From Escherichia phage fp01, in sequence record NC_048731.1: 64,000 nucleotides of DNA; one strand, given 5' to 3'. Positions 3,272-63,007 of this stretch are shown here, piece by piece. The translations under genes were made by a program, and so were the position numbers. The notes beneath the pieces were generated by a model that made no database searches, was not told where the DNA came from, and saw only the letters and a program-made list of their open reading frames with translations. Positions within the stretch are counted from its first letter, which is position 1. Each line of letters starts with the position of its first letter.

Positions 3272-6061
3272 GTGTTCTCAATCCTACAAGGTCATGCAGG
3301 ATTTCATCGCGATTTAGCCACTGGCATTTGGCGAGAAGTTAAAGCAGAAGACTATCTTTTTGCTAAAAGATTTTCCTCAAAGCATCCTGAAGGTAAACCA
3401 GCTTCAATGCCCTTCAAGTTTGATGTAATTGATGAAATTGATCCTCAAACCCTAGTAGAAATGCTCCCCCTTATGAGACGTTTAACGTCTGACCCTCATA
3501 TCGTTGCGGTACGAGGACGATGTCTTGCACCCAAAAATAATGTGCGACGTAAGAAGGGCAACTTTAATGTATCTAACCCAAGTCATATAATTGCAATGGA
3601 CGTGGATGGTATTGTAGATACAGGTGGTTGTAACAAGTTTGATCTTGTTGGCATGGCTCGACATATTATTAGGATGTTAAATAGTATTAGTGAGGATATG
3701 TTTCCTCTTGATGCAGGGTTTATTGCTCATGCATCGTCTTCGGCTGGGCTAAAACCAGGTATCCGAATGCACTTAATACTAGAATCTAATGTTAAAGTAA
3801 CTCAGGGTCAAATCAAATTCTTATTTACATCTATCAACGAAAGTAGTAGACAAAAGTATGGCTTTGATATTGCCGACTTAGCTTATTACTCTTCCGTACA
3901 GCTCCATTATTTTGCAGATCCGTTGTTTACCGATGGTATAGTAGATCCGTTTAAAGCGGAGGGTGCTTCACGTCTGGTATTTGTTAAGGGTTCTAAAGTA
4001 AATTTACCCAATAATCTGGTTGACTATGAAACAACTAGAGGTGAGTTTAAAGAAGAGTTCTACTCTTTACTCGACCAAATTAAGGGTAAAAAAGCTGCCT
4101 CTGATAAAGTAGAAGAAACTATCAGCGAACTAGAAGAAGCTGAGGATGGAGTGTATCTACGTATTATTCCTAAACTCTATCACAGGGCTTTGGAGGATGG
4201 TGTTGATTTTGCATGGTTAGAAAAAGAAATCCGTCCAGCCTTATCAGAATATATTGCAACTAAAGATAATAGTCGTAATATTCAAGACTACTTTAATAAT
4301 GGTCGTAAACAGGCTCTAAAAGCGTTTGTTAATAATTCTAAACGTGATATACCGGATGTTTTAAAAGGTATTCCACTTAAAAAGCTAGAAACTAACTCTT
4401 TAGAGACTGATAACTTCTTGAAATTAAATACTGTACCACCAGAAGGTTATATGACTTTTGTAAAAGCAAGTTTAGGTACAGGTAAAACTACAGCGGTTGT
4501 GCGTTGGTTAGATTCAGGAGTTATTAAAGGTAATTTCTTAGCAATTACCAATACTCGAGCACTGGTATCTTCAAATGCTAAGAAATTTAGTGCAGGACAA
4601 TATGATAAGTCTGTAGATATGCTTAATTTTAAGCGTGGTGCTATTGACCGTATGTCCACAACTATTCACTCTTTGCATAAGTTCAAGAGTTTTATTGGTC
4701 AAATCGATGCAATCTTTATCGATGAATGTGATGCTGTAATGAATGACCTATTGTTCGCCCCTGTTGTTAAACAACGTCGTGAATGTATTCAGGTTCTTCG
4801 GGATATTCTTGCAACTGCAAAAATCATTATATTATCTGATGGTGATATTAGTGCAGAAACAATTGAAGCATATGGTTCTTTGATTGAGTTTGATAAACCG
4901 GTTGCATTTTATAATCATCACCGTAAAATGCTGTCAAAAGCTCATGCTTACGAGTTCCCTGACGAATCCAGTATTTGGGTTGCACTTCAGACTTCTCTAG
5001 AGATGGGTGAGAAATCTATTCTGGTATCTGACTGTGGGCCGGATGAACTGAATGAGAAGGGCATGGCGTTGCGTCGTAATACGGGTGCATTAGTTAAGGA
5101 AATCCACTCAAACTCTACGTCTGATGTAGATATTAGACGTATTCTGGATTACACAACTAATGAGCTAATTGACCAACAAATTGATTGCTTATTATGTAGT
5201 CCATCCGTAACGAGTGGTGTTGACTTTAACTATTTTGATAACGTATTCGTTATCACTAGAACTAGTAACCAAGCGCCAAACATGCGTTTCCAAGCAATCA
5301 GGCGCGACCGTGGTGCTCAGAACATTTATTATTTTATTGATAAATCTACGAGTGGATTCTCCGCAGGTTCTGAGCAATATAACATTGATGAAGGTTGGCT
5401 GGAGTTAGCACAGCAATTATACGCACGTCGAAGAGAGCTGGAATCTAGGAACTATACTAGTACTTTACGTTATTATTTGCTTGATCAAGGTGCAACTATT
5501 GATATTTTCAGTGAAAGCTGGGGAACTATCGAAGGTGCAGGAAAAGAGTATACGGAAGAGCGAATCAAAGCTATATTGTATTCAACTCCTGATTATTGTG
5601 CTCCACGTCATGCAGATGCGTATGAAGCTAAACTACTTCTTGTTCGCTATTATCATCTTGAATCTATTAAAGATGTAACAGTTGAGCATGTTGAACAATA
5701 TATCAAGGATAAACCGAATGATCGAGCAGCATTCTTCCATAAAATGCACGAGATGTTCTGGGAAGATATTAAGAAGTGTTCAAATGTCACTATCAAACCA
5801 TTCATAGAAGCTCTGAAAGGTAAGAAGAAAGATTTCTTCCTTAAAACAGGTCAGAGTGCTAACCCAAAATATGCCAGAATGTATCTTGGTATGATGGGTA
5901 TTGGTAAGGATATGAACACGGAGAATATTGTAGACTGGTACAGAACTTATTGTAAAATCGAGTGTATGCCAATCCCGTATAAGTTTATGACTGATGAGGA
6001 GAAACATATGCATGATGAAGCAATGGCAGAGCTAGGTGCTAGAAATGACAGTGAAGAATAA
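3272..6061 (+). CDS. large P-loop NTPase, possible replication-initiation or origin-binding helicase-like protein
   Basis: Walker A SLGTGKTT and Walker B IFIDECD; frame open from 3074 but probable start is in-frame GTG at 3272 behind RBS AGGAG; N-terminal extension looks non-coding. Confidence 0.5.
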   Translation: MFSILQGHAGFHRDLATGIWREVKAEDYLFAKRFSSKHPEGKPASMPFKFDVIDEIDPQTLVEMLPLMRRLTSDPHIVAVRGRCLAPKNNVRRKKGNFNVSNPSHIIAMDVDGIVDTGGCNKFDLVGMARHIIRMLNSISEDMFPLDAGFIAHASSSAGLKPGIRMHLILESNVKVTQGQIKFLFTSINESSRQKYGFDIADLAYYSSVQLHYFADPLFTDGIVDPFKAEGASRLVFVKGSKVNLPNNLVDYETTRGEFKEEFYSLLDQIKGKKAASDKVEETISELEEAEDGVYLRIIPKLYHRALEDGVDFAWLEKEIRPALSEYIATKDNSRNIQDYFNNGRKQALKAFVNNSKRDIPDVLKGIPLKKLETNSLETDNFLKLNTVPPEGYMTFVKASLGTGKTTAVVRWLDSGVIKGNFLAITNTRALVSSNAKKFSAGQYDKSVDMLNFKRGAIDRMSTTIHSLHKFKSFIGQIDAIFIDECDAVMNDLLFAPVVKQRRECIQVLRDILATAKIIILSDGDISAETIEAYGSLIEFDKPVAFYNHHRKMLSKAHAYEFPDESSIWVALQTSLEMGEKSILVSDCGPDELNEKGMALRRNTGALVKEIHSNSTSDVDIRRILDYTTNELIDQQIDCLLCSPSVTSGVDFNYFDNVFVITRTSNQAPNMRFQAIRRDRGAQNIYYFIDKSTSGFSAGSEQYNIDEGWLELAQQLYARRRELESRNYTSTLRYYLLDQGATIDIFSESWGTIEGAGKEYTEERIKAILYSTPDYCAPRHADAYEAKLLLVRYYHLESIKDVTVEHVEQYIKDKPNDRAAFFHKMHEMFWEDIKKCSNVTIKPFIEALKGKKKDFFLKTGQSANPKYARMYLGMMGIGKDMNTENIVDWYRTYCKIECMPIPYKFMTDEEKHMHDEAMAELGARNDSEE

Positions 6062-54274: not shown

Positions 54275-55954
54275 TTATGCGAAAAATTTGCCGTTTTTAA
54301 AGTCAATCAAAGTGCGTTGCCCGTTGGCGTATGTAATTAAATGCGTTTGCGTCCAGCTTGACGCGCCAACGTTGTAACCCATATCCAGACTACCAGCTAC
54401 GCCAGCGGTATAAACGCCGCCATAAATGCTAGCGGTGTGAGTGTGTCCGGTGTTTAACTTGCCCAATTTCTTAAACTGCTTAGGATTGCCACGGCTGCCG
54501 TTTATGCCGTTATGACCGTGTACACCACACTCAATGCCTGCAATTTTGAATGATTGATCAGTCGTTAGGAAAATCGCGTTAAACTCGCAACCTGCGACGC
54601 TACGCAGCGCATAATCTAGCACGTTGAAAGTATCGTCATGATTACCGATTGCCGCGTAAATTGCAGCATTAAGGCGGTGATATAGTTCCGCATTGGCTGG
54701 GTCGTCTTTAATGTTAGCATTACGATCATCAAGCCAACGAGATAGCGCCAAATCGTGATTCGATTCAACAATGATCGTTTGACTAAAATCACGCTCCATC
54801 GATTCCAGCACGCGCCCGGTATCGATAAGATCATCAATAACCTTATCCCGTCCGGCTGCATACTGTTTCGCTAGAAATACACCGGAAGCGCGGTTATGAT
54901 GATTGCGCGATGTAAAATCATGCACGTCATGGATAAACTGATATTTAGGCTTGAGAATATCAAGCAAACTATTGTCGCCAGCCCATGACGCTGCGGCGCA
55001 CTCCTCATCTAATTTTTCGGCGTGAATGTCACCATACTGTAAGCCTAAAACATGCCCCGATGTTTCATAGCATCCGGCGGGAGTAGCGCAAACATTCAGA
55101 TCATAAAACACCCCGCTTTCATCCATTGTTTCAAGCTGGCGAACAAAAAATTCACCGTCCTCATCGAACTCGACAATCAGCGCACCAAAGTTATGAAGTG
55201 CTTCCGCTTTCTGTCCTGCTTTCTGCTGAATGTAGTTTTTGAGTGTTGCCGTTCCGGTTGAATACATGCGGCGCACCACTTCACCTTTTAAAGCTGGGAC
55301 GCTTTCGGCGGTGATTTTAGCGTGACCAATTGCCAGACCCTCGATATTTAAAGCCGTTGCAGTTTCTGCAAATCCAGAAAGCGGATAATCTGCGGTTGGC
55401 AAAACATTAATTTCAGCCATGAAAGCAAAACGGCGGTTATTTAAAAACACGTTTTTGCTGCAAATATACTTATCAAAAGCGGAATCATATTTGATTCCGT
55501 CAGCACCTTCCCCATTTTGGAATCCGTTTTTATTATAAATATACTTAGAAACAAGCAAATCAGCGCCGATAAATTTGGCATATTGTTCAAGCGAGGACAA
55601 AAAGTTTTTATGCGGGAAAGTATTATTCTGAATCGATGTAATAATAAAGCGTTTGCCTTGTTTTACTTCCCACTGTTCCACGGTACTAGAAACAATTCCA
55701 GCCGCTTCGGGGCGCTCATCGTTTTTAATGGCTTTTACCGCTTTCGCCGCTTTCGGTTTAGCTGGTTTATTTGCTTCCAGCCAGTCGCAGATAGCGGTTG
55801 AATGTTTTGCAGTATCGTAAACCGCTTTTGATATATCGTCGCAGACCTCCAATTTAGTAGCGCGCAGACGTTTACCATAGAAATTAAAGTCAGCGGCTAG
55901 TTTCAGGATAGCGGTTTGTTTTTCTGCGGAAAAAATCATAGTAATAAACTCCAT
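54275..55954 (-). CDS. A1: A1-like pre-early protein with metallophosphoesterase-type nuclease motifs
   Basis: 559 aa; calcineurin-like motifs GDIHAE and GHTH; GC-rich composition; position matches T5 A1. Confidence 0.55.
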   Translation of the reverse strand: MEFITMIFSAEKQTAILKLAADFNFYGKRLRATKLEVCDDISKAVYDTAKHSTAICDWLEANKPAKPKAAKAVKAIKNDERPEAAGIVSSTVEQWEVKQGKRFIITSIQNNTFPHKNFLSSLEQYAKFIGADLLVSKYIYNKNGFQNGEGADGIKYDSAFDKYICSKNVFLNNRRFAFMAEINVLPTADYPLSGFAETATALNIEGLAIGHAKITAESVPALKGEVVRRMYSTGTATLKNYIQQKAGQKAEALHNFGALIVEFDEDGEFFVRQLETMDESGVFYDLNVCATPAGCYETSGHVLGLQYGDIHAEKLDEECAAASWAGDNSLLDILKPKYQFIHDVHDFTSRNHHNRASGVFLAKQYAAGRDKVIDDLIDTGRVLESMERDFSQTIIVESNHDLALSRWLDDRNANIKDDPANAELYHRLNAAIYAAIGNHDDTFNVLDYALRSVAGCEFNAIFLTTDQSFKIAGIECGVHGHNGINGSRGNPKQFKKLGKLNTGHTHTASIYGGVYTAGVAGSLDMGYNVGASSWTQTHLITYANGQRTLIDFKNGKFFA

Positions 55955-56033
55955 TAAAGGGATAAAAAACGTTTGTTATTGGCAATATTGCCAGATATAA
56001 CGCCTTGAATAATAGGCGTTATAATTTGCAACA

Positions 56034-56231
56034 TTAATTTAAAGGCATAAGGCTAGAACTAACACCACAAACAACGGCGGCAATAAAACAAATCAGACCT
56101 AAACGCTTCGCTAACTTAGATTTGCGTTTAAAATAATACGAATCTAAGTCATTTTGAAAATATGCGAACAATAACGAGGCCGCCATAATAAATAGTCCTA
56201 GAATCAGCGATTCAGTAGGGTAAAAGATCAT
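56034..56231 (-). CDS. small membrane protein
   Basis: Two hydrophobic helices; start set to internal ATG with RBS TGGAG. Confidence 0.35.
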   Translation of the reverse strand: MIFYPTESLILGLFIMAASLLFAYFQNDLDSYYFKRKSKLAKRLGLICFIAAVVCGVSSSLMPLN

Positions 56232-56288
56232 TTTAATAACTCCAGTTAAAGGGAAATTATAGTGGGGAATAATCCCCACTAGTTAAAT

Positions 56289-56696
56289 TTATTCACCTGC
56301 GGCCTGTTTTACTTCATCGGCAACGCCTAACAACTGCGCCACGGCGTCCAGCGTTTCCAGTTTCGCGCTTTCAAGGCTTGCCAGATCATCGGCGTCTTTG
56401 ATAATGCCGGAATCAATAGCGTGTTTTGCAATTACTCGCACATAATGAGCCTTGCGGATTGAACTGCCGCCGCCAACTTTGCGCGGCTTATCGCTTTTTT
56501 GATAGGCTTTCGCGCTGGTCAATTTTGAGCGAACGGATACGGGAGAAGTCGCGCCCACTGCCTTTGCAATCTCTTTCAGGCCGTCGCTATTTGCAAATTC
56601 TAAACCGTTTTCGTTGATTAACTGCTGATACAGGGTAACAGCTTTTTGGGTGTTGTCTTCATTCCAAGTGAATTTTGCGGTTTTTGCGTTAGTCAT
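56289..56696 (-). CDS. hypothetical pre-early protein
   Basis: 135-aa ORF, E. coli-like codons, RBS GGAG. Confidence 0.45.
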   Translation of the reverse strand: MTNAKTAKFTWNEDNTQKAVTLYQQLINENGLEFANSDGLKEIAKAVGATSPVSVRSKLTSAKAYQKSDKPRKVGGGSSIRKAHYVRVIAKHAIDSGIIKDADDLASLESAKLETLDAVAQLLGVADEVKQAAGE

Positions 56697-56794
56697 GGTA
56701 AAAACTCCAATTAATTTAATTTAAGGGATTAGATTAACTAATGTTAATCGTTATAACCCTCCTTATTCTAGGAGGGTATAAAGTTAACACTAAT

Positions 56795-57046
56795 TTATAA
56801 TACAGCTTCCCATTTTTCGTTGCGTTGAACAACCTTTACAACATCGCCTGATTTAACGCGAACGTTATAAACGGTTTTGCCGTTGTTACTGCGTTCTGTT
56901 TCAGCGTATACCGCGTCGATTGTATCGAACGGCATAAGCGCCGCGCCTTTAATACGTTCGGCCTTTCCGGTTAATTCATCCGTTTTAGTAACGAAAGGAA
57001 TAAAAACGGATTGACCAATTTTAGGCGTGGTAATAACGTTTTGCAT
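56795..57046 (-). CDS. hypothetical pre-early protein
   Basis: 83-aa ORF with RBS GGAG. Confidence 0.4.
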   Translation of the reverse strand: MQNVITTPKIGQSVFIPFVTKTDELTGKAERIKGAALMPFDTIDAVYAETERSNNGKTVYNVRVKSGDVVKVVQRNEKWEAVL

Positions 57047-57246
57047 AATATAGACTCCAGTTTATTCAGTGGATTGTTCCGCATTACCTGCTAGAAAATA
57101 ACAGGTAATAAGAAAAAATCCGCTCGCCATTATAAAATCAAATTAAAGAACTCCACGCGGGCCGCTATATCCCAGTTAGGGGGCGAGACACATTATGGTA
57201 AGTGCCGACCGTCAAATTGTATCAAGTTATCGCTCTTTTCGAACTG

Positions 57247-57271
57247 GGTATATCTTAAAAGCCCATCGGCT
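57247..57271. repeat. left arm of a 25-bp inverted repeat flanking a two-gene cassette
   Basis: GGGTATATCTTAAAAGCCCATCGGC; reverse complement with one mismatch at 57670-57694. Confidence 0.8.
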
Positions 57272-57277
57272 AGGTTG

Positions 57278-57478
57278 TCAAACTATTTTTTGCAGTTTTT
57301 TATGATTTTCCTTCAGGTCAATCATAATATTACGCCAGATCATTTCTAAACCTTGCTGGCGCCCTTTCTTGTACTGCGTGAAGCGGTATTTTACCGATCT
57401 TTGCGCTACTGTCAATAATTTTTTAGTTTCGCTATCCAGTGCCTTGCTAGGTTTACCAGTGATCAATAGAGTTTGCAT
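57278..57478 (-). CDS. hypothetical small basic protein
   Basis: 66 aa, Lys/Arg-rich; start overlaps upstream stop (TAATG). Confidence 0.35.
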   Translation of the reverse strand: MQTLLITGKPSKALDSETKKLLTVAQRSVKYRFTQYKKGRQQGLEMIWRNIMIDLKENHKKLQKIV

Positions 57479-57636
57479 TATTTGAGATCCTCCAAAGCGT
57501 ATAAACCTTTGCCATCATTGCAGATTATTACTGCTTCTGAATAGGTGGCATGATATTCGTTTGCCGCTTTTACCCATTGCTCGATCTTTTCGATCGTGTC
57601 GTGGGTAGCTGGATGATCGTTATATATTGTTTGCAT
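57478..57636 (-). CDS. hypothetical small acidic protein
   Basis: 52-aa ORF found by hand (below the track length cut-off); RBS AAGGA 9 nt upstream; translationally coupled to the next gene. Confidence 0.3.
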   Translation of the reverse strand: MQTIYNDHPATHDTIEKIEQWVKAANEYHATYSEAVIICNDGKGLYALEDLK

Positions 57637-57669
57637 ATCGTCGATTCCTTATAATGAATAAGTTTACCG

Positions 57670-57694
57670 CCGATAGGCTTTTAAGATATACCCA
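57670..57694. repeat. right arm of the 25-bp inverted repeat
   Basis: GCCGATAGGCTTTTAAGATATACCC; embedded in a local palindrome agtttaccgccg...cggcggtaaact. Confidence 0.8.
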
Positions 57695-58148
57695 ATTTTT
57701 AAAGAGCGCGGCGGTAAACTCCCCGCCGTGTAGTTCGTCATTGCCGCCCTACGAGATAAATAATAACAAACAACGAAAAAGGCGCAACCTTATATTTGTA
57801 AAGAAATGTAAAGACAAAATCCACCGGACACCGTGCGGCGATCTGGGCGCGACGGCCTAAAATTAAAAGAAACGGGCGCGCGAATACCACAAAACACAGC
57901 AGATAAGCAAGTAATTTTTTCATTTATATTTGCTTTGCCCTACTTGACAAAATCTAAAAAGCTCGTGGCGACGATAAACGACGTGGCCCCTTATGATTGG
58001 ATGGCTAAAAACTTTACTGCGTTCTGGGGCGTTTCAGGCCGCTTATTTTCGACTTAACAAATCATTAACAAACGCAAAATTGAAAAATAGTTGGAAAAGG
58101 TCTTGACTTTTAAAAATCAAGACCAAATGACTTAATTTATTAAATTAA

Positions 58149-58667
58149 TTAATTGACAATTCCAAATTCAGCTTTTTTAGTTTCAAGCCATAATAATAAC
58201 TCTTGTAAATCATAACCTGACTTACTAACACGCTTGTTAGTAATAGGATTCTTAATTTGAGCAGTCAAATAGTCACGCCCGTAACTATCACGGGGGCGAA
58301 CTTTATTAACGTAAATGTTTTTAGGGATACCATTAGCACGCTTACAGTTTTCATACTCACTAGGAGTACGATTATAATTATTCTGCGAACTATCAACCGC
58401 GCGAAGATTCCAGATGTTATTATTACGAGTGTTACGATCGATATGATCAATCATTAGCTCGCTATCTATACCGCCATTCATTATACAAAAGATAATTCTA
58501 TGTACTTTTAACTGTCCCATGCCTAATAGTTCAACTTGCCAATAATTACCATTTAAACCACCTGCGACGGCGTGATCTTCCCGCCAACGTAAAAATGATA
58601 ACGCTGTTTCATCATAATAAAAGTAACTATTAAAAAGATCATAATCTATATCTTTATATTTACCCAT
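58149..58667 (-). CDS. HNH homing endonuclease
   Basis: HNH signature MIDHIDRNTRNNNIWNLRAV (H-x-D...N...N); AT-rich codons unlike the GC-richer neighbours. Confidence 0.65.
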   Translation of the reverse strand: MGKYKDIDYDLFNSYFYYDETALSFLRWREDHAVAGGLNGNYWQVELLGMGQLKVHRIIFCIMNGGIDSELMIDHIDRNTRNNNIWNLRAVDSSQNNYNRTPSEYENCKRANGIPKNIYVNKVRPRDSYGRDYLTAQIKNPITNKRVSKSGYDLQELLLWLETKKAEFGIVN

Positions 58668-58931
58668 TGTTATAGTTTCCTTATGTTATTAATTTAATCT
58701 CTATTATATTATATCAAAACAATTAGCAGACTAGCTAATGAGTTTTTCAGGTTTAATTAGCAGACTCATAATCACTCTAAAAACCTATTAGCCAACTAAC
58801 TATATTTTATTATATAATAACTGTATAAATTAGTTAGTGAGAACCACTATCATTTAAGTTACCCACAGCCTTATACATTTTGTAAAATAATTTGACACAA
58901 TAGGCGGCGATATGAGGGCTTTTACACAGAC

Positions 58932-58940
58932 TTATCCACA
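58932..58940 (+). promoter_or_regulatory. consensus DnaA box
   Basis: TTATCCACA exact match to the DnaA box consensus. Confidence 0.5.
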
Positions 58941-58950
58941 GGTTATTCCA

Positions 58951-58966
58951 CTGTATAAATATACAG
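58951..58966. promoter_or_regulatory. LexA (SOS) box-like palindrome
   Basis: CTGTATAAATATACAG fits CTGT-(AT-rich 8)-ACAG. Confidence 0.4.
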
Positions 58967-59232
58967 GGTAAAAAGGTAGTGTTAACAACTGCAATCAATT
59001 TTAAGCGGCCTAAAACGCTTTCTAACGAGCTAAACGCTGCGGGGTAGTATTAAAGTAAAGCCTTCACCCGTCGGCCTGGTGGCTTCGCCGTGTCTTGCTC
59101 TTTACTACACCGCTGCGCGGTTAGCATAAAACTAGGTGTTAGGCAAGGAAAATAAAAAAGTAAAATAATCTTTGCCTATGCTAGAAAATTACCCTTATCA
59201 TTCACTCACCGATTAACGAGGGAGGCCAACAA

Positions 59233-60219
59233 ATGCGGCTATATAAACCAGATAACGCAACCGTCTTAAAAGGTGCGCTGCGTAACCTGCTGGACGGTAG
59301 CAGAACAACCAGCATTAAACATTTTGTTTTCAATATTGAAACTATTCATCAAAACTTTTTTGATGATTATGATGCTTACAATATGAATAGTTTTCTACCG
59401 TTATATAAGCAAGGGGCAACGCTTGTTTTATATAATCAGGATTATCAATTACTTACTAGTAGGGGGCCGGATACTGATTTCATAGTCGTAAAAGGCAACA
59501 CAGTAAAAGCCTATGATACTGGGGCGGGCTTAGAAGTTTTTTCAATAGAAAACTATGAAGCCAATGATAATGATCTTTATGACGTAGAAAATTTTCTTGA
59601 TTCATTTTGGCGTTATTTATCAGTTGGCTGGAATCGGTCGGATTCTGATGGGTATCGTTTTGCGGCTATAATGGCCTTTGATGATAACGGTAATTTTTTG
59701 CTACCGTCGGAGTTATATAATCGGGTATATGAAGGCGATATTGTTGACGCCGGATTTTCTTTCGAAAGGGAAGAAAGTATTGACAGTATAGAAAAACATG
59801 CTGTAAATTCTAACACTAAAAGCGTTCACACTCAAACTACTGAAAACAAAGGAAAAAATGCCATGACCAAGATCGCTAACATCGTTGCCGCCAATAAGTC
59901 TGCCGTTGTAAACGCTGCAAAACTGGAAGCGGGTAAAATTGCACTGACTCAAATTACGAAAGTAGCGGCTAAAAAAGCACCGTTCATGATCAAAGGCTAT
60001 ATTGATACGCCGATTGGTCGTGTAGTGATCGCTAACCTGCTGAGTGTAGCGGTTGACCAGTACGCCCCGAGTAACCAGAAAGCGAAAGCGGTAGCAGGGG
60101 CGGCTATGGAAGCGGCGATGTTGGAAATGGTGCAAAGTTTTAACATCGCTGAGATGATTGATGAAATGGTAAAAGGTATCGATATTTCTACTTTCACCAC
60201 TAACACCGAAAGCGAGTAA
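59233..60219 (+). CDS. hypothetical pre-early protein (328 aa), two-part composition
   Basis: RBS GAGGGAGG; C-terminal third Ala-rich with E. coli-like codons. Confidence 0.45.
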   Translation: MRLYKPDNATVLKGALRNLLDGSRTTSIKHFVFNIETIHQNFFDDYDAYNMNSFLPLYKQGATLVLYNQDYQLLTSRGPDTDFIVVKGNTVKAYDTGAGLEVFSIENYEANDNDLYDVENFLDSFWRYLSVGWNRSDSDGYRFAAIMAFDDNGNFLLPSELYNRVYEGDIVDAGFSFEREESIDSIEKHAVNSNTKSVHTQTTENKGKNAMTKIANIVAANKSAVVNAAKLEAGKIALTQITKVAAKKAPFMIKGYIDTPIGRVVIANLLSVAVDQYAPSNQKAKAVAGAAMEAAMLEMVQSFNIAEMIDEMVKGIDISTFTTNTESE

Positions 60220-60283
60220 TAATAACTAGCGGGGTAACAATCCCCGCTTTACTATTCCCTTGTTAATTAATAGGAGGCTAATT

Positions 60284-60601
60284 ATGCAGCTTAACAAAAA
60301 AATGCTAGAACAATTGCGGGGTAGAATCCAGCGCGATGACTACCCTCACATTAATTATTCTTCGGAAGTAGTAGACACTGCCGATTCATGGAAAAAAGCA
60401 GGTTACCCCTATGTATGGCAACATGCAGAAAGCGCAAACGGATTCCATGCCTTTCGTGATTTAGGTCATGGAAAACTTTGCGTTTTTAAAGGTGAGTTAT
60501 TAATAGGAGTATCAGAATCGGAAGTAATCACGGATGAGGTTGTATTCTTAGACAATGACCAATATGAAACAGGCAATCAGTTTTATTTTCCCGCTAATTA
60601 A
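60284..60601 (+). CDS. hypothetical protein
   Basis: Start at ATG 60284 behind TTAATTAATAGGAGGCTAATT; the track start at 60260 lacks an RBS. Confidence 0.4.
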   Translation: MQLNKKMLEQLRGRIQRDDYPHINYSSEVVDTADSWKKAGYPYVWQHAESANGFHAFRDLGHGKLCVFKGELLIGVSESEVITDEVVFLDNDQYETGNQFYFPAN

Positions 60602-62671: not shown

Positions 62672-62893
62672 GACCGCGCCCGCGATGGTTAGCCTGCTAA
62701 TGGTTAGGGTGTTACGTGTCGCCTTGTGTGATCGTTAGCGAGCTAACTAATTTTCAAGCCTCCTCCAATTTTGCCCTTGTTTTAGTATCCCCACCAAAAT
62801 TAAACGCGTTAGAATGCGTTTGAGGGCGTTTTAGCGGTATATTAGAATTATTCACTGCGTAGGAATACTGTATATTTATCCAGTAGGATAAGC

Positions 62894-62978
62894 TGTGGAT
62901 AAGTCTGTTGATAACGCTTCAAAACGGCTAGGATTTTGTCAAGTCAAATCGTGCTGTTGATAAGTCTGGGGATAACTT
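62894..62978. promoter_or_regulatory. cluster of DnaA-box-like sites
   Basis: TGTGGATAA (62894-62902, exact reverse-complement consensus), TGTTGATAA at 62906 and 62955, GGGGATAAC at 62967. Confidence 0.55.
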
Positions 62979-63007
62979 AAATAATAGTGTTTCTCACTTC
63001 CGTTCTT

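What the first reader, a model, noticed from the sequence alone, without database searches (positions are those of the whole stretch)
57247..57694. Two-gene cassette bracketed by a 25-bp inverted repeat
GGGTATATCTTAAAAGCCCATCGGC at 57247-57271 recurs as a reverse complement with one mismatch at 57670-57694. The pair exactly flanks two translationally coupled minus-strand ORFs: a 52-aa acidic protein and a 66-aa basic protein sharing a TAATG junction. The right arm is itself inside a local palindrome. This geometry fits a miniature mobile cassette with terminal inverted repeats, a recombination substrate, an operator pair, or an mRNA whose 5' and 3' ends pair. An acidic-plus-basic small-protein pair is also reminiscent of toxin-antitoxin or inhibitor-target pairs.
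Basis: seen in the sequence. Interest (0 to 1): 0.55.

Follow-up and report, generated by a model that had tools for sequence, protein, structure and literature searches.

The report
Stem-closed pre-early gene module of T5-like phages
The inverted repeat is real and is the already-named "IRA/IRA′" repeat of phage T5; comparison with about 60 related phages suggests it is not a mobile element but most likely an RNA helix that closes the messenger of one or two tiny early genes, with its downstream arm doubling as the promoter of the next genes.

Summary
**Observation:** confirmed. The repeat extends to 40 nt at 88% complementarity (57231-57270 / 57669-57708) and is far beyond chance.

**Identity:** the window is a T5-like phage. 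The repeat is the homologue of T5 "inverted repeat A/A′", annotated in 2005, with no function stated in the sources I could read.

**What comparison of about 60 loci shows:**
- Every locus has a repeat at this position. There are no empty sites, no inverted alleles and no target-site duplication, so it is not a mobile cassette.
- The 52-aa ORF is an indel inside the repeat. It occurs in 46 phage records, against 510 for the 66-aa DUF7416 gene, so the two are not an obligate toxin-antitoxin pair.
- Arm sequences are largely or wholly replaced in the most divergent of the ten arm pairs compared, yet 25-37 pairs are kept in all. Two Pectobacterium phages carry two or three such modules in tandem around unrelated small genes.
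- The 3′ arm always carries the spacer and -10 of a σ70 promoter (T5P1 in T5). Its -35 overlaps the DUF7416 stop codon in six of the eight lineages inspected.

**Best reading (about 0.6):** a long-range RNA helix closes the cassette mRNA and may guide processing or end protection.

**Caveats:** the RNA level is inferred, and the strand-specific G·U signal is clear only within T5-type phages. Protein functions remain unknown.

The parts
57669..57708 (-). 5' arm of the helix on the transcript strand; homologue of T5 'inverted repeat A''. Its outer 17 nt are the conserved motif CGCTCTTTAAAAATTGG (57692-57708).
   Evidence: It pairs with 57231-57270 in the minimum-free-energy fold of the transcript.
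57231..57270 (-). 3' arm of the helix; homologue of T5 'inverted repeat A'. It starts 7 nt after the stop codon of the 66-aa gene and contains the spacer, the -10 hexamer and the start region of a sigma-70 promoter.
57252..57281 (-). Promoter-like site TTGACA-18-TAAGAT, equivalent to T5 'putative pre-early promoter T5P1'. The -35 overlaps the TGA stop codon of the 66-aa gene and the -10 lies inside the 3' arm. It would drive DUF7177, A2 and A1.
   Evidence: 10 of 12 matches; the T5 equivalent is TTGACA-17-TAAGAT; AY587007 annotates T5P1 overlapping IR A; the same layout is seen in the ten arm pairs compared, whose arms carry different -10 hexamers.
57478..57636 (-). 52-aa acidic protein gene (phrog_21018, pI 4.8). 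It is present or absent as a roughly 155-bp indel inside the repeat and is 100% identical to a protein of Escherichia phage fp01.
57278..57478 (-). 66-aa basic protein gene, homologue of T5.008 (Pfam DUF7416, phrog_4718, pI 10.3). The predicted structure is a two-helix hairpin.
57388..57415 (-). Promoter TTGACA-16-TAAAAT inside the 66-aa coding sequence, equivalent to T5 promoter P-H22 / T5P2. Its transcripts would carry only the 3' arm.
57709..57728 (-). GC-rich hairpin CGGCGG-8 nt-CCGCCG immediately upstream of the motif and 5' arm. Its 3' half can pair instead with 57661-57672, a 12-bp local stem that would enclose the 5' arm.
   Evidence: The hairpin is conserved in T5, the Epseptimavirus phages, L054 and Slocum.
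57760..57787 (-). Candidate weak promoter for the cassette mRNA, TTGCGC-16-TATTAT. The hexamers are conserved and the spacer diverges in T5, L030 and Sugarland.
   Evidence: This is an inference; the start site has not been mapped.
57068..57124 (-). Second conserved double-stranded RNA element: an irregular hairpin of about 23 bp in the leader of the DUF7177 gene, about 20 nt before its ribosome-binding site.
   Evidence: z = -3.8 in the window, and z = -3.1 to -6.2 in 7 of 8 lineages, with different sequences.
56795..57046 (-). DUF7177 gene (homologue of T5.007), the first gene downstream of the module.

Best explanation
The repeat is the T5 IRA/IRA' element. It most likely acts in RNA. On the leftward pre-early transcript (the window's minus strand), the 5' arm sits in the leader, 32 nt before the first start codon. 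It pairs with the 3' arm, 7 nt after the last stop codon. This forms a helix of 25-37 pairs (24-40 nt of arm; 37 pairs here) that closes the whole small-gene cassette into a loop.

The same DNA that encodes the 3' arm is also the spacer, -10 and start region of the sigma-70 promoter T5P1, which drives the next genes (DUF7177, A2, A1). The arm is therefore under two constraints at once: to be a promoter and to pair with the leader.

Shown here:
- The complementarity is under strong selection across Demerecviridae, independent of arm sequence and of which proteins are enclosed.
- The geometry relative to start codon, stop codon and promoter is conserved.

Inferred, not shown:
- The pairing happens in mRNA.
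- A perfect duplex of 22 bp or more serves as an RNase III target, and/or pairs the two ends of the cassette mRNA so that they are protected from decay.
- The single-stranded AU-rich motif GCUCUUUAA(A/C)AAUUUGG lies at the helix base and could be a cleavage or linker site between modules.

Transcripts that start at the internal promoters (P-H22, T5P1) lack the 5' arm and would escape this structure.

My confidence is about 0.9 that pairing is the selected property, about 0.65 that it acts in RNA, and about 0.35 that RNase III processing is the mechanism.
For: Identity: AY587007 annotates 'inverted repeat A' (4682-4706), 'inverted repeat A'' (4950-4974) and promoter T5P1 (4663-4737, complement) overlapping IR A. 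T5 and Spc35 carry the repeat around T5.008 alone.

Universality: every one of about 60 loci with enough flank has a repeat at this position.

Covariation within T5-type phages (21 distinct arm pairs):
- The core helix has 28 pairs, with 98.8% of cells paired.
- 4 pairs change on both sides.
- 0 of 500 shuffles reach the observed covariation score, and slid registers pair only 25-45% of cells.
- G.U on the transcript strand fills 51 cells, against 6 for A.C.
- All 17 variants tested are more stable as sense RNA than as antisense RNA.

Covariation across the ten arm pairs compared, anchored on the -10 hexamer:
- 25-37 pairs are kept, with duplex energy of -39 to -62 kcal/mol.
- Most positions show 3-5 pair types.
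- The only fully invariant positions lie within the -10 hexamer, including A-11 and T-7.
- Arm sequences are unrelated in L054 (25 of 25 positions complementary) and DU_PP_V (29 nt, 86%), which belongs to a different subfamily.

Folding: the minimum-free-energy fold of the full transcript closes the cassette in all four lineages tested.

Not tied to one protein:
- L054 has the repeat but no DUF7416 gene.
- My1 has two tandem modules and DU_PP_V has three, around a 65-aa protein, a 39-aa hydrophobic peptide, and an acidic ORF plus DUF7416.

Co-transcription: both ORFs are under coding constraint. The 5' arm lies 32 nt before the ATG, with no promoter-like site between them, and no terminator-like site lies between the stop codon and the 3' arm.

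Context: a second conserved hairpin lies in the DUF7177 leader in 7 of 8 lineages. A spacer of 140-410 nt (398 nt here) makes cruciform extrusion in duplex DNA implausible; this last point rests on established knowledge.
Against: No transcript ends, RNA structure probing or RNase data exist for this region in any paper I could find, and Rfam has no matching family.

The strand-specific signal is weak outside T5-type phages. Of the independent lineages, 4 favour sense RNA, 2 favour antisense RNA (L030 and the second My1 module) and 3 are near ties. By site, the tally is about 15 G.U against 7 A.C, which is not significant on its own.

T5-type variants are related to one another, so cell counts overstate the number of independent events.

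The promoter that makes the 5' arm part of an mRNA is not mapped. The candidate at 57760-57787 scores only 8 of 12. The GC hairpin followed by CGCUCUUU upstream of the arm could terminate read-through from further upstream.

The universal overlap of the 3' arm with a promoter could instead point to a DNA-level role that I have not thought of.
Confidence: 0.6

Rival explanations
1. DNA-level operator pair. The two arms are inverted binding sites for one phage or host protein, which loops out the cassette and shuts off promoters T5P1 (inside the 3' arm) and P-H22 (between the arms). This could be part of the A1-dependent shut-off of pre-early transcription.
For: The 3' arm coincides with a promoter core in every lineage, and a second promoter lies inside the loop. 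A basic small protein is encoded between the arms. The strand asymmetry that would favour RNA is not significant across lineages.
Against: The arm sequence is largely or wholly replaced in the most divergent lineages, yet the two copies stay near-identical over their full 25-38 nt (25 of 25 in L054, 27 of 28 in Slocum). Operator pairs normally share only a conserved core. Modules without DUF7416 also have repeats. The DUF7416 model is a plain two-helix hairpin with no helix-turn-helix or ribbon-helix-helix fold and no PDB match below E = 1. Polymorphisms within T5-type phages are almost all of the G.U type on one strand.
Confidence: 0.12
2. Recombination module boundary. The repeat and the flanking direct motif copies exist because they mediate exchange, loss or inversion of small pre-early gene cassettes between co-infecting phages. 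This would resemble the PeSL promoter/stem-loop cassettes of T4-like phages, and complementarity would be maintained by gene conversion rather than by a structural role.
For: Between lineages, similarity stops at motif 1 and resumes at motif 2, so the unit from 5' arm to 3' arm is swapped as a block. Cassette content varies: one gene, two genes, or unrelated genes. PeSLs are described as composite terminator/promoter repeats flanking variable early ORFs (PMC4122927; PMC2839356).
Against: PeSL-type exchange needs direct repeats, and the inverted arms are not needed for it. In the window and in T5 the second direct motif copy is absent. No inverted-orientation allele and no cassette-free site occurs in about 60 loci. 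DUF7416 is found in 510 records, against 529 for the neighbouring DUF7177 gene. Arms of 25 nt are near or below the usual length for efficient homologous recombination; this last point rests on established knowledge.
Confidence: 0.1
3. Miniature mobile element: terminal inverted repeats mobilised by a transposase acting in trans, carrying two passenger genes.
For: There are 25-40-nt terminal inverted repeats that precisely flank the genes.
Against: There is no target-site duplication, only one copy in 64 kb, and the same insertion point in all relatives across two subfamilies with no empty site. The arm sequence differs between lineages, which a shared transposase would not tolerate. No transposase gene was seen among the ORFs called in 56000-59000; the HNH gene hegG lies upstream and is a homing-type endonuclease.
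Confidence: 0.02
4. The acidic and basic proteins form a toxin-antitoxin or inhibitor-target pair, and the repeat is incidental to that function.
For: A small acidic ORF sits just before a basic one, overlapping or within a few nucleotides of it, in the window, some Epseptimavirus phages, Sugarland, Slocum, L054 and DU_PP_V.
Against: DUF7416 occurs alone in about 90% of relatives (46 against 510 records). No toxin-antitoxin, defence or functional family matches either protein. The acidic partners fall in different PHROG families or none. The AlphaFold2 model of the 52-aa protein has low confidence, pLDDT 60. A looser partnership between the two proteins is not excluded.
Confidence: 0.05

Closest known systems
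T5 'inverted repeat A / A'' in Repeat Region 1 of the left terminal repeat (annotated in GenBank AY587007; discussed in Davison, bioRxiv 10.1101/866236)
   Same: The position is the same (between the T5.007 homologue and hegG), the 25-nt core has the same length and nearly the same sequence, and the overlap with putative promoter T5P1 is the same. The window's repeat is the orthologue.
   Different: In T5 the repeat brackets one gene, with 243 nt between the arms. In the window it brackets two, with 398 nt. The Davison preprint and the AY587007 annotation treat the region as untranslated and assign no function. Here the enclosed ORFs show coding constraint, and the repeat is shown to covary across the family.
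RNase III processing helices: the long-range stalks that bracket 16S and 23S rRNA in E. coli rRNA precursors, and the intercistronic RNase III sites of phage T7 early mRNA (from my own knowledge of these systems)
   Same: A duplex of 22 bp or more is formed by sequences flanking a functional RNA unit. It lies in a polycistronic early phage transcript made by host RNA polymerase. Several double-stranded RNA elements occur along the same transcript.
   Different: T7 sites are local hairpins between genes, whereas here the arms are 140-410 nt apart and enclose whole cistrons, as in rRNA stalks. Here the 3' arm is also a promoter. No cleavage has been demonstrated.
PeSL (promoter-early stem-loop) cassettes of T4-like phages (PMC2839356, PMC4122927)
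   Same: Short conserved regulatory repeats that include an early promoter flank small, variable early ORFs of unknown function, and gene content is swapped between repeats.
   Different: PeSLs are direct repeats with a local stem-loop. Here the defining feature is a long-range inverted repeat unique to each module. The direct motif copy is missing from the window itself.
Invertible promoter switches such as hin/gin and fimS (from my own knowledge)
   Same: Inverted repeats of 25-40 nt flank a segment of a few hundred bp that contains a strong promoter (P-H22).
   Different: No recombinase gene is evident nearby, and no inverted allele occurs in any of about 60 loci. The phage is lytic, and its pre-early phase lasts only minutes.

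Membership tests
T5 IRA/IRA' repeat of the first-step-transfer region | An inverted repeat with a core of about 25 nt, located in the terminal repeat between the T5.007 homologue and the hegG / Repeat Region 1 remainder | tested here: met
   The alignment of the window with T5 and Spc35 is collinear across the locus. T5 arms lie at 4669-4707 / 4951-4989 in NC_005859 and are annotated as IR A / A' in AY587007.
T5 IRA/IRA' repeat of the first-step-transfer region | The promoter-distal arm (IR A) overlaps pre-early promoter T5P1 | tested here: met
   TTGACA-18-TAAGAT lies at 57281-57252. T5 has TTGACA-17-TAAGAT at 4718-4690, and T5P1 is annotated at 4663-4737.
Transposable element with terminal inverted repeats (MITE or IS-like) | A target-site duplication flanks the repeats | tested here: not met
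   The flanks are ...caagttat on one side and cggcggta... on the other, with no direct repeat.
Transposable element with terminal inverted repeats (MITE or IS-like) | Presence/absence polymorphism with clean empty sites, or several copies per genome | tested here: not met
   No empty site was found in about 60 loci. There is a single copy in the window.
Invertible DNA switch (inverton) | Both orientations of the segment are found among genomes or reads | tested here: not met
   In all loci the DUF7416 gene is collinear with DUF7177. The best megablast hits are single-strand matches.
Invertible DNA switch (inverton) | A site-specific recombinase is encoded nearby | tested here: inconclusive
   No recombinase was found among the four proteins scanned with Pfam and PHROGs, which lie between 56795 and 58667, and none is annotated in the T5 left terminal repeat. 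I did not examine the whole genome.
Type II toxin-antitoxin pair | The two genes co-occur obligatorily | tested here: not met
   The 52-aa ORF is in 46 phage records and DUF7416 in 510.
Type II toxin-antitoxin pair | Homology to a known toxin or antitoxin family | tested here: not met
   Pfam, PHROGs and PADLOC give only families of unknown function, or nothing. Foldseek against the PDB gives no match below E = 1.
Type II toxin-antitoxin pair | One product is toxic and the other neutralises it | not testable with these tools
   This needs expression experiments.
RNase III-processed long-range helix | A near-perfect RNA duplex of about 22 bp or more can form | tested here: met
   25-37 pairs are kept, with duplex energy of -39 to -62 kcal/mol, in all ten arm pairs compared. 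The helix is present in full-length minimum-free-energy folds.
RNase III-processed long-range helix | Base-pair covariation supports the helix | tested here: met
   0 of 500 shuffles reach the covariation score; 4 pairs change on both sides; 3-5 pair types at most positions across lineages.
RNase III-processed long-range helix | Both arms lie on one transcript, and the signal is specific to the transcribed strand | tested here: inconclusive
   Co-transcription is inferred from gene layout. The G.U excess is clear within T5-type phages (51 against 6 cells) but mixed across lineages.
RNase III-processed long-range helix | Cleavage by RNase III in vivo or in vitro | not testable with these tools
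   I found no published data.
PeSL-like recombination cassette | Direct repeats of a composite promoter/stem-loop flank the variable ORFs | tested here: not met
   The window holds only one copy of the motif CGCTCTTTAAAAATTGG. Direct copies do flank the unit in L054, Sugarland, Slocum, chee130_1, My1 and DU_PP_V.
Operator pair with DNA looping | A conserved recognition core is shared by the sites across relatives that keep the same regulator | tested here: not met
   Apart from positions within the -10 hexamer, no arm position is invariant across lineages.

The most novel reading that the evidence does not exclude
Demerecviridae may build their pre-early region from self-contained 'stem-closed' expression modules. 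Each module would run: leader motif, 5' arm, ribosome-binding site, one or two tiny genes, then a 3' arm that is at the same time the core promoter of the next module. Pairing of the arms would circularise or excise each mini-mRNA through RNase III or RNase E. Whole modules would be swapped between phages at the conserved 17-nt motif. If so, a single stretch of DNA is read as a promoter in DNA and as a helix strand in RNA, and this dual coding is what has kept IRA/IRA' conserved. That would give a function to a repeat region of T5 first-step-transfer DNA for which none is stated in the sources I could read.
Probability: 0.35. Interest if true: 0.65.

Novelty: new variant of a known kind. Interest (0 to 1): 0.48.

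Why it matters
The repeat regions of T5 first-step-transfer DNA have been catalogued since 2005 and are said to "serve some important functions", but those functions are undefined, and Repeat Region 1 has been treated as untranslated.

This analysis gives a concrete, testable function for IRA/IRA′:
- The region encodes real small proteins.
- Selection acts on pairing rather than on sequence.
- The downstream arm is dual-coded as a promoter.

If confirmed, this would be a compact design for controlling mRNA ends and processing during the few minutes of host takeover. It would also be a useful natural example of a promoter and an RNA helix overlapping in the same DNA. The proteins themselves (DUF7416 and the acidic partner) remain uncharacterised pre-early products and are candidates for host-takeover factors.

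Tried and rejected
- **Rfam scan of 55500-60500 at a permissive threshold:** nothing relevant.
- **RNA duplexfold on long flanks to find arms de novo:** the structures over-extended into meaningless global duplexes. I replaced this with targeted extraction.
- **First folding script:** failed once on a file name and once on the time limit.
- **Literature:** the Davison 2015 review and the 1985 Gentz and Bujard promoter paper are not held. Sequence-string searches for the promoter found nothing. One search was wasted on the ambiguous term 'IRA'. I found no RNase III or transcript-end data for T5. I could not establish whether T5P1 is the classical P-D/E20. NC_005859 places P-D/E20 at 4338-4664, where no minus-strand promoter-like site was found.
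- **Structure route for the proteins:** DUF7416 gives a generic helical hairpin with no significant PDB match. The 52-aa model has low confidence.
- **Divergent promoter on the opposite strand at the 5' arm:** rejected. From reading the sequence, no -35-like hexamer lies at the right spacing.
- **Helix plus downstream motif as an intrinsic terminator:** rejected for the window, because no U-tract follows the helix.
- **The 61-aa ORF at 57738-57923 as a transcribed gene upstream of the arm:** it shows no coding signature.
- **DUF7177 homologue outside Demerecviridae (Klebsiella phage 05F01):** it has no comparable repeat.
Full report
**1. The observation**

The 25-nt sequence and its reverse complement, with one mismatch, are present at 57246-57270 and 57669-57693. 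The repeat extends outward to 40 nt at 88% complementarity (57231-57270 / 57669-57708), with 398 nt between the arms.

In 200 dinucleotide shuffles of the surrounding 2 kb, the best inverted-repeat score was 10.8 ± 1.0 (maximum 14), against 25 observed. Apart from one small local hairpin, it is the only inverted repeat of at least 18 nt with arms within 1200 nt in the whole window.

The two minus-strand ORFs are as described: 52 aa at 57478-57636 and 66 aa at 57278-57478, with a TAATG junction, pI 4.8 and pI 10.3. The perfect 12-bp local repeat around the right arm also exists.

**2. Where this is**

The window is a T5-like phage. The 52-aa protein is 100% identical to a protein of Escherichia phage fp01. 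The locus lies in the terminal repeat, which is the first-step-transfer (pre-early) DNA.

The genes are homologues of T5.007 (DUF7177, 56795-57046), T5.008 (DUF7416, the 66-aa ORF) and hegG (58149-58667).

The Hangzhou T5 record AY587007 annotates the following:
- "inverted repeat A" at 4682-4706;
- "inverted repeat A′" at 4950-4974;
- "putative pre-early promoter T5P1" at 4663-4737 (complement), overlapping IR A;
- T5P2 at 4795-4880, which corresponds to P-H22 of NC_005859;
- no CDS between the arms.

[quoted passage not shown] The repeat itself is therefore a known, named feature.

**3. The mobile-cassette test**

I compared the window with about 60 related loci: T5 (two records), Spc35, 39 IMG/VR loci, 13 usable metagenome loci and five divergent phages. 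In every locus with enough flank, an inverted repeat sits at the same position.
- There is no empty site.
- There is no allele with the inner segment inverted.
- There is no target-site duplication.

What does vary is the 52-aa ORF. It is a roughly 155-bp indel inside the repeat relative to T5 and Spc35. It is present in 46 phage records, against 510 for DUF7416 and 529 for DUF7177. Where it was examined, it lies directly upstream of DUF7416.

Both ORFs show the third-codon-position excess of real genes: 10/5/24 and 162/85/425, against 154/127/544 for DUF7177. This contradicts the "untranslated" label.

**4. Pairing, not sequence, is conserved**

Within T5-type phages there are 21 distinct arm pairs:
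- The 28-pair core helix has 98.8% of cells paired.
- Four pairs change on both sides.
- No shuffle out of 500 reaches the observed covariation score, and slid registers pair only 25-45% of cells.
- One-sided changes are almost all G·U on the transcript strand (51 cells, against 6 for A·C).
- All 17 variants tested are more stable as sense RNA than as antisense RNA.

Divergent lineages have their own arms:

| Lineage | Arm length and complementarity |
|---|---|
| Epseptimavirus | 24 nt, 96% |
| Sugarland | about 28 nt |
| Metagenomic L054 | 25 of 25, unrelated sequence |
| Serratia phage Slocum | 28 nt, 96% |
| Pectobacterium DU_PP_V (another subfamily) | 29 nt, 86%, unrelated sequence |
| Pectobacterium My1 | two tandem modules |

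DU_PP_V in fact has three tandem modules. They enclose a 65-aa protein, a 39-aa hydrophobic peptide, and an acidic ORF plus DUF7416. L054 has the repeat but no DUF7416 gene.

I then anchored each 3′ arm on its -10 hexamer. Across the ten arm pairs compared:
- 25-37 pairs are kept, with duplex energy of -39 to -62 kcal/mol.
- Most positions show 3-5 different pair types.
- The only fully invariant positions lie within the -10 hexamer, including A-11 and T-7.

Full-length minimum-free-energy folds close the cassette in all four lineages tested.

**5. Conserved geometry**

On the transcript strand the order is:
1. a GC hairpin (in several lineages);
2. the motif GCTCTTTAAAAAT;
3. the 5′ arm;
4. 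about 20-32 nt containing the ribosome-binding site;
5. the ORF or ORFs;
6. a stop codon, which lies inside the -35 hexamer TTGACA or TTGATA in six of the eight lineages inspected;
7. the 3′ arm, carrying the -10 hexamer (TAAGAT, TAAAAT, TATTAT, CATAAT, TATGAT or TACTAT).

In all lineages except T5-type, a second, direct copy of the motif follows. In T5-type phages the helix instead extends to pair motif 1. Similarity between lineages collapses between the two motif copies and resumes at them.

**6. Mechanism**

*Shown:* selection maintains complementarity between a leader segment and the core of promoter T5P1, independent of arm sequence and of the enclosed proteins.

*Inferred:* the pairing occurs in RNA. 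The reasons are:
- The spacer of 140-410 nt (398 nt here) makes a DNA cruciform implausible.
- Near-perfect identity over the full arm length, with complete sequence turnover between lineages, is unlike an operator pair.
- Any mRNA that expresses the cassette must include the 5′ arm, because the arm lies 32 nt before the ATG with no promoter-like site between them.
- That mRNA would run through the 3′ arm, because no terminator-like site follows the stop codon.
- Polymorphisms within T5-type phages are strand-specific.
- A second conserved hairpin lies in the DUF7177 leader in 7 of 8 lineages, with z from -3.1 to -6.2.

*Most likely consequence, not tested:* the helix is an RNase III substrate, and/or it pairs the two ends of the cassette mRNA and so protects them. 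The AU-rich single-stranded motif would act as a linker or cleavage site between modules. Transcripts from the internal promoters P-H22 and T5P1 lack the 5′ arm and would escape.

*Caveats:*
- Across independent lineages the sense-versus-antisense stability test is mixed: 4 favour sense, 2 favour antisense and 3 are near ties.
- The promoter feeding the 5′ arm is only a weak candidate at 57760-57787.
- No experimental transcript data were found.

**7. Proteins**

DUF7416 is predicted to be a two-helix hairpin (pLDDT 74), with no PDB match below E = 1. The 52-aa model has low confidence. No defence or toxin-antitoxin family matches either protein.

A small acidic ORF directly preceding the basic one recurs in several lineages, so a functional partnership is possible. 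An obligate toxin-antitoxin relationship is excluded by the 46-versus-510 distribution.

**8. Comparison with known systems, and verdict**

The feature is the orthologue of T5 IRA/IRA′, so the repeat as such is already known.
- It works most like the long-range RNase III stalks of rRNA precursors, and like the RNase III-punctuated early mRNA of T7.
- Its modular, swappable layout recalls the PeSL cassettes of T4-like phages.
- It differs from all of these in that the helix encloses whole cistrons and its 3′ strand is also a promoter.

I rate it a new variant of a known kind, of moderate interest (0.48). The lead interpretation (mobile element, toxin-antitoxin pair) is not supported, but one listed alternative (an mRNA whose ends pair) is the best-supported reading.

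Noticed in passing
window 57068-57124 (-); also L002 4490-4562, L054 468-533, L058 1301-1379, L059 1150-1208, L061 1185-1260, L055 2409-2492: A conserved irregular hairpin of about 20-23 bp lies in the leader of the DUF7177 (T5.007) gene, a few to about 25 nt before its ribosome-binding site. It is found in 7 of 8 lineages with different sequences (z = -3.1 to -6.2), but not in My1. It could be a second processing or stabilising element on the same transcript.
   Followed up: partly
window 57388-57415 (-): The strong promoter TTGACA-16-TAAAAT, equivalent to T5 P-H22 / T5P2, lies inside the DUF7416 coding sequence, between the two arms. Its transcripts would carry the 3' arm without its partner.
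   Followed up: partly
window 57738-57923 (-); T5 NC_005859 4915-5022: The 61-aa ORF here, annotated as a CDS in Spc35, shows no coding signature: substitutions by codon position are 150/103/162, indels are frequent, and the frame is kept in only 12 of 24 relatives. T5.009 in NC_005859 reads through the leader and the 5' arm, and no equivalent ORF of 30 aa or more is called across that stretch in the window. Both are probably annotation artefacts.
   Followed up: partly
window 58836-58966 and 62868-62998: Large inverted repeats (75 nt at 76% and 39 nt at 87%) lie about 4 kb apart and bracket the rightward pre-early genes. By position they correspond to T5 IRC/IRD and IRD'/IRC', the region of the injection stop signal with its DnaA boxes.
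   Followed up: no
window 58149-58667 (-): An HNH homing endonuclease gene (hegG homologue) is present upstream of the module. Davison notes that most T5-like phages lack this insertion, which splits Repeat Regions 1 and 2.
   Followed up: no
L059 (Pectobacterium phage DU_PP_V) 501-619 and 719-886; L062 (My1) 314-621 and about 628-1009: These phages carry tandem stem-closed modules. DU_PP_V has an unannotated 39-aa hydrophobic peptide ORF and an unannotated 55-aa acidic ORF inside such modules. The DU_PP_V record also carries an 'attachment site attL' feature at L059 709-722, between the 5' arm of the third module and its first start codon, which looks out of place in a lytic T5-like phage.
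   Followed up: partly
window 57692-57708 (-); L054 30-46 and 441-458; L055 about 1889-1905 and 2388-2404: The 17-nt motif GCTCTTTAA(A/C)AAT(T/C)TGG is invariant at the 5' side of the module in all lineages. It is repeated directly after the 3' arm, at about +10 to +30 of the T5P1-type promoter, in all but T5-type phages. Its role is unknown; it could be an RNase E site, a leader element or a recombination joint.
   Followed up: partly
window 57760-57787 (-): A candidate weak promoter, TTGCGC-16-TATTAT, is followed by the conserved sequence TTATCTCGTAGGGCGGCAA. The hexamers are conserved and the spacer diverges in T5, L030 and Sugarland. It could be the unmapped start of the cassette mRNA.
   Followed up: partly
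phage collection hits: Short records of 2.6-4.6 kb named 'Listeria phage LM 4-14-1', 'Salmonella phage S.Inf 5-2' and 'Salmonella phage S.Ent 1-35-3' carry this T5-like locus. The hit lists also count records named Campylobacter. The Listeria and Campylobacter names suggest contaminated or mislabelled deposits.
   Followed up: no
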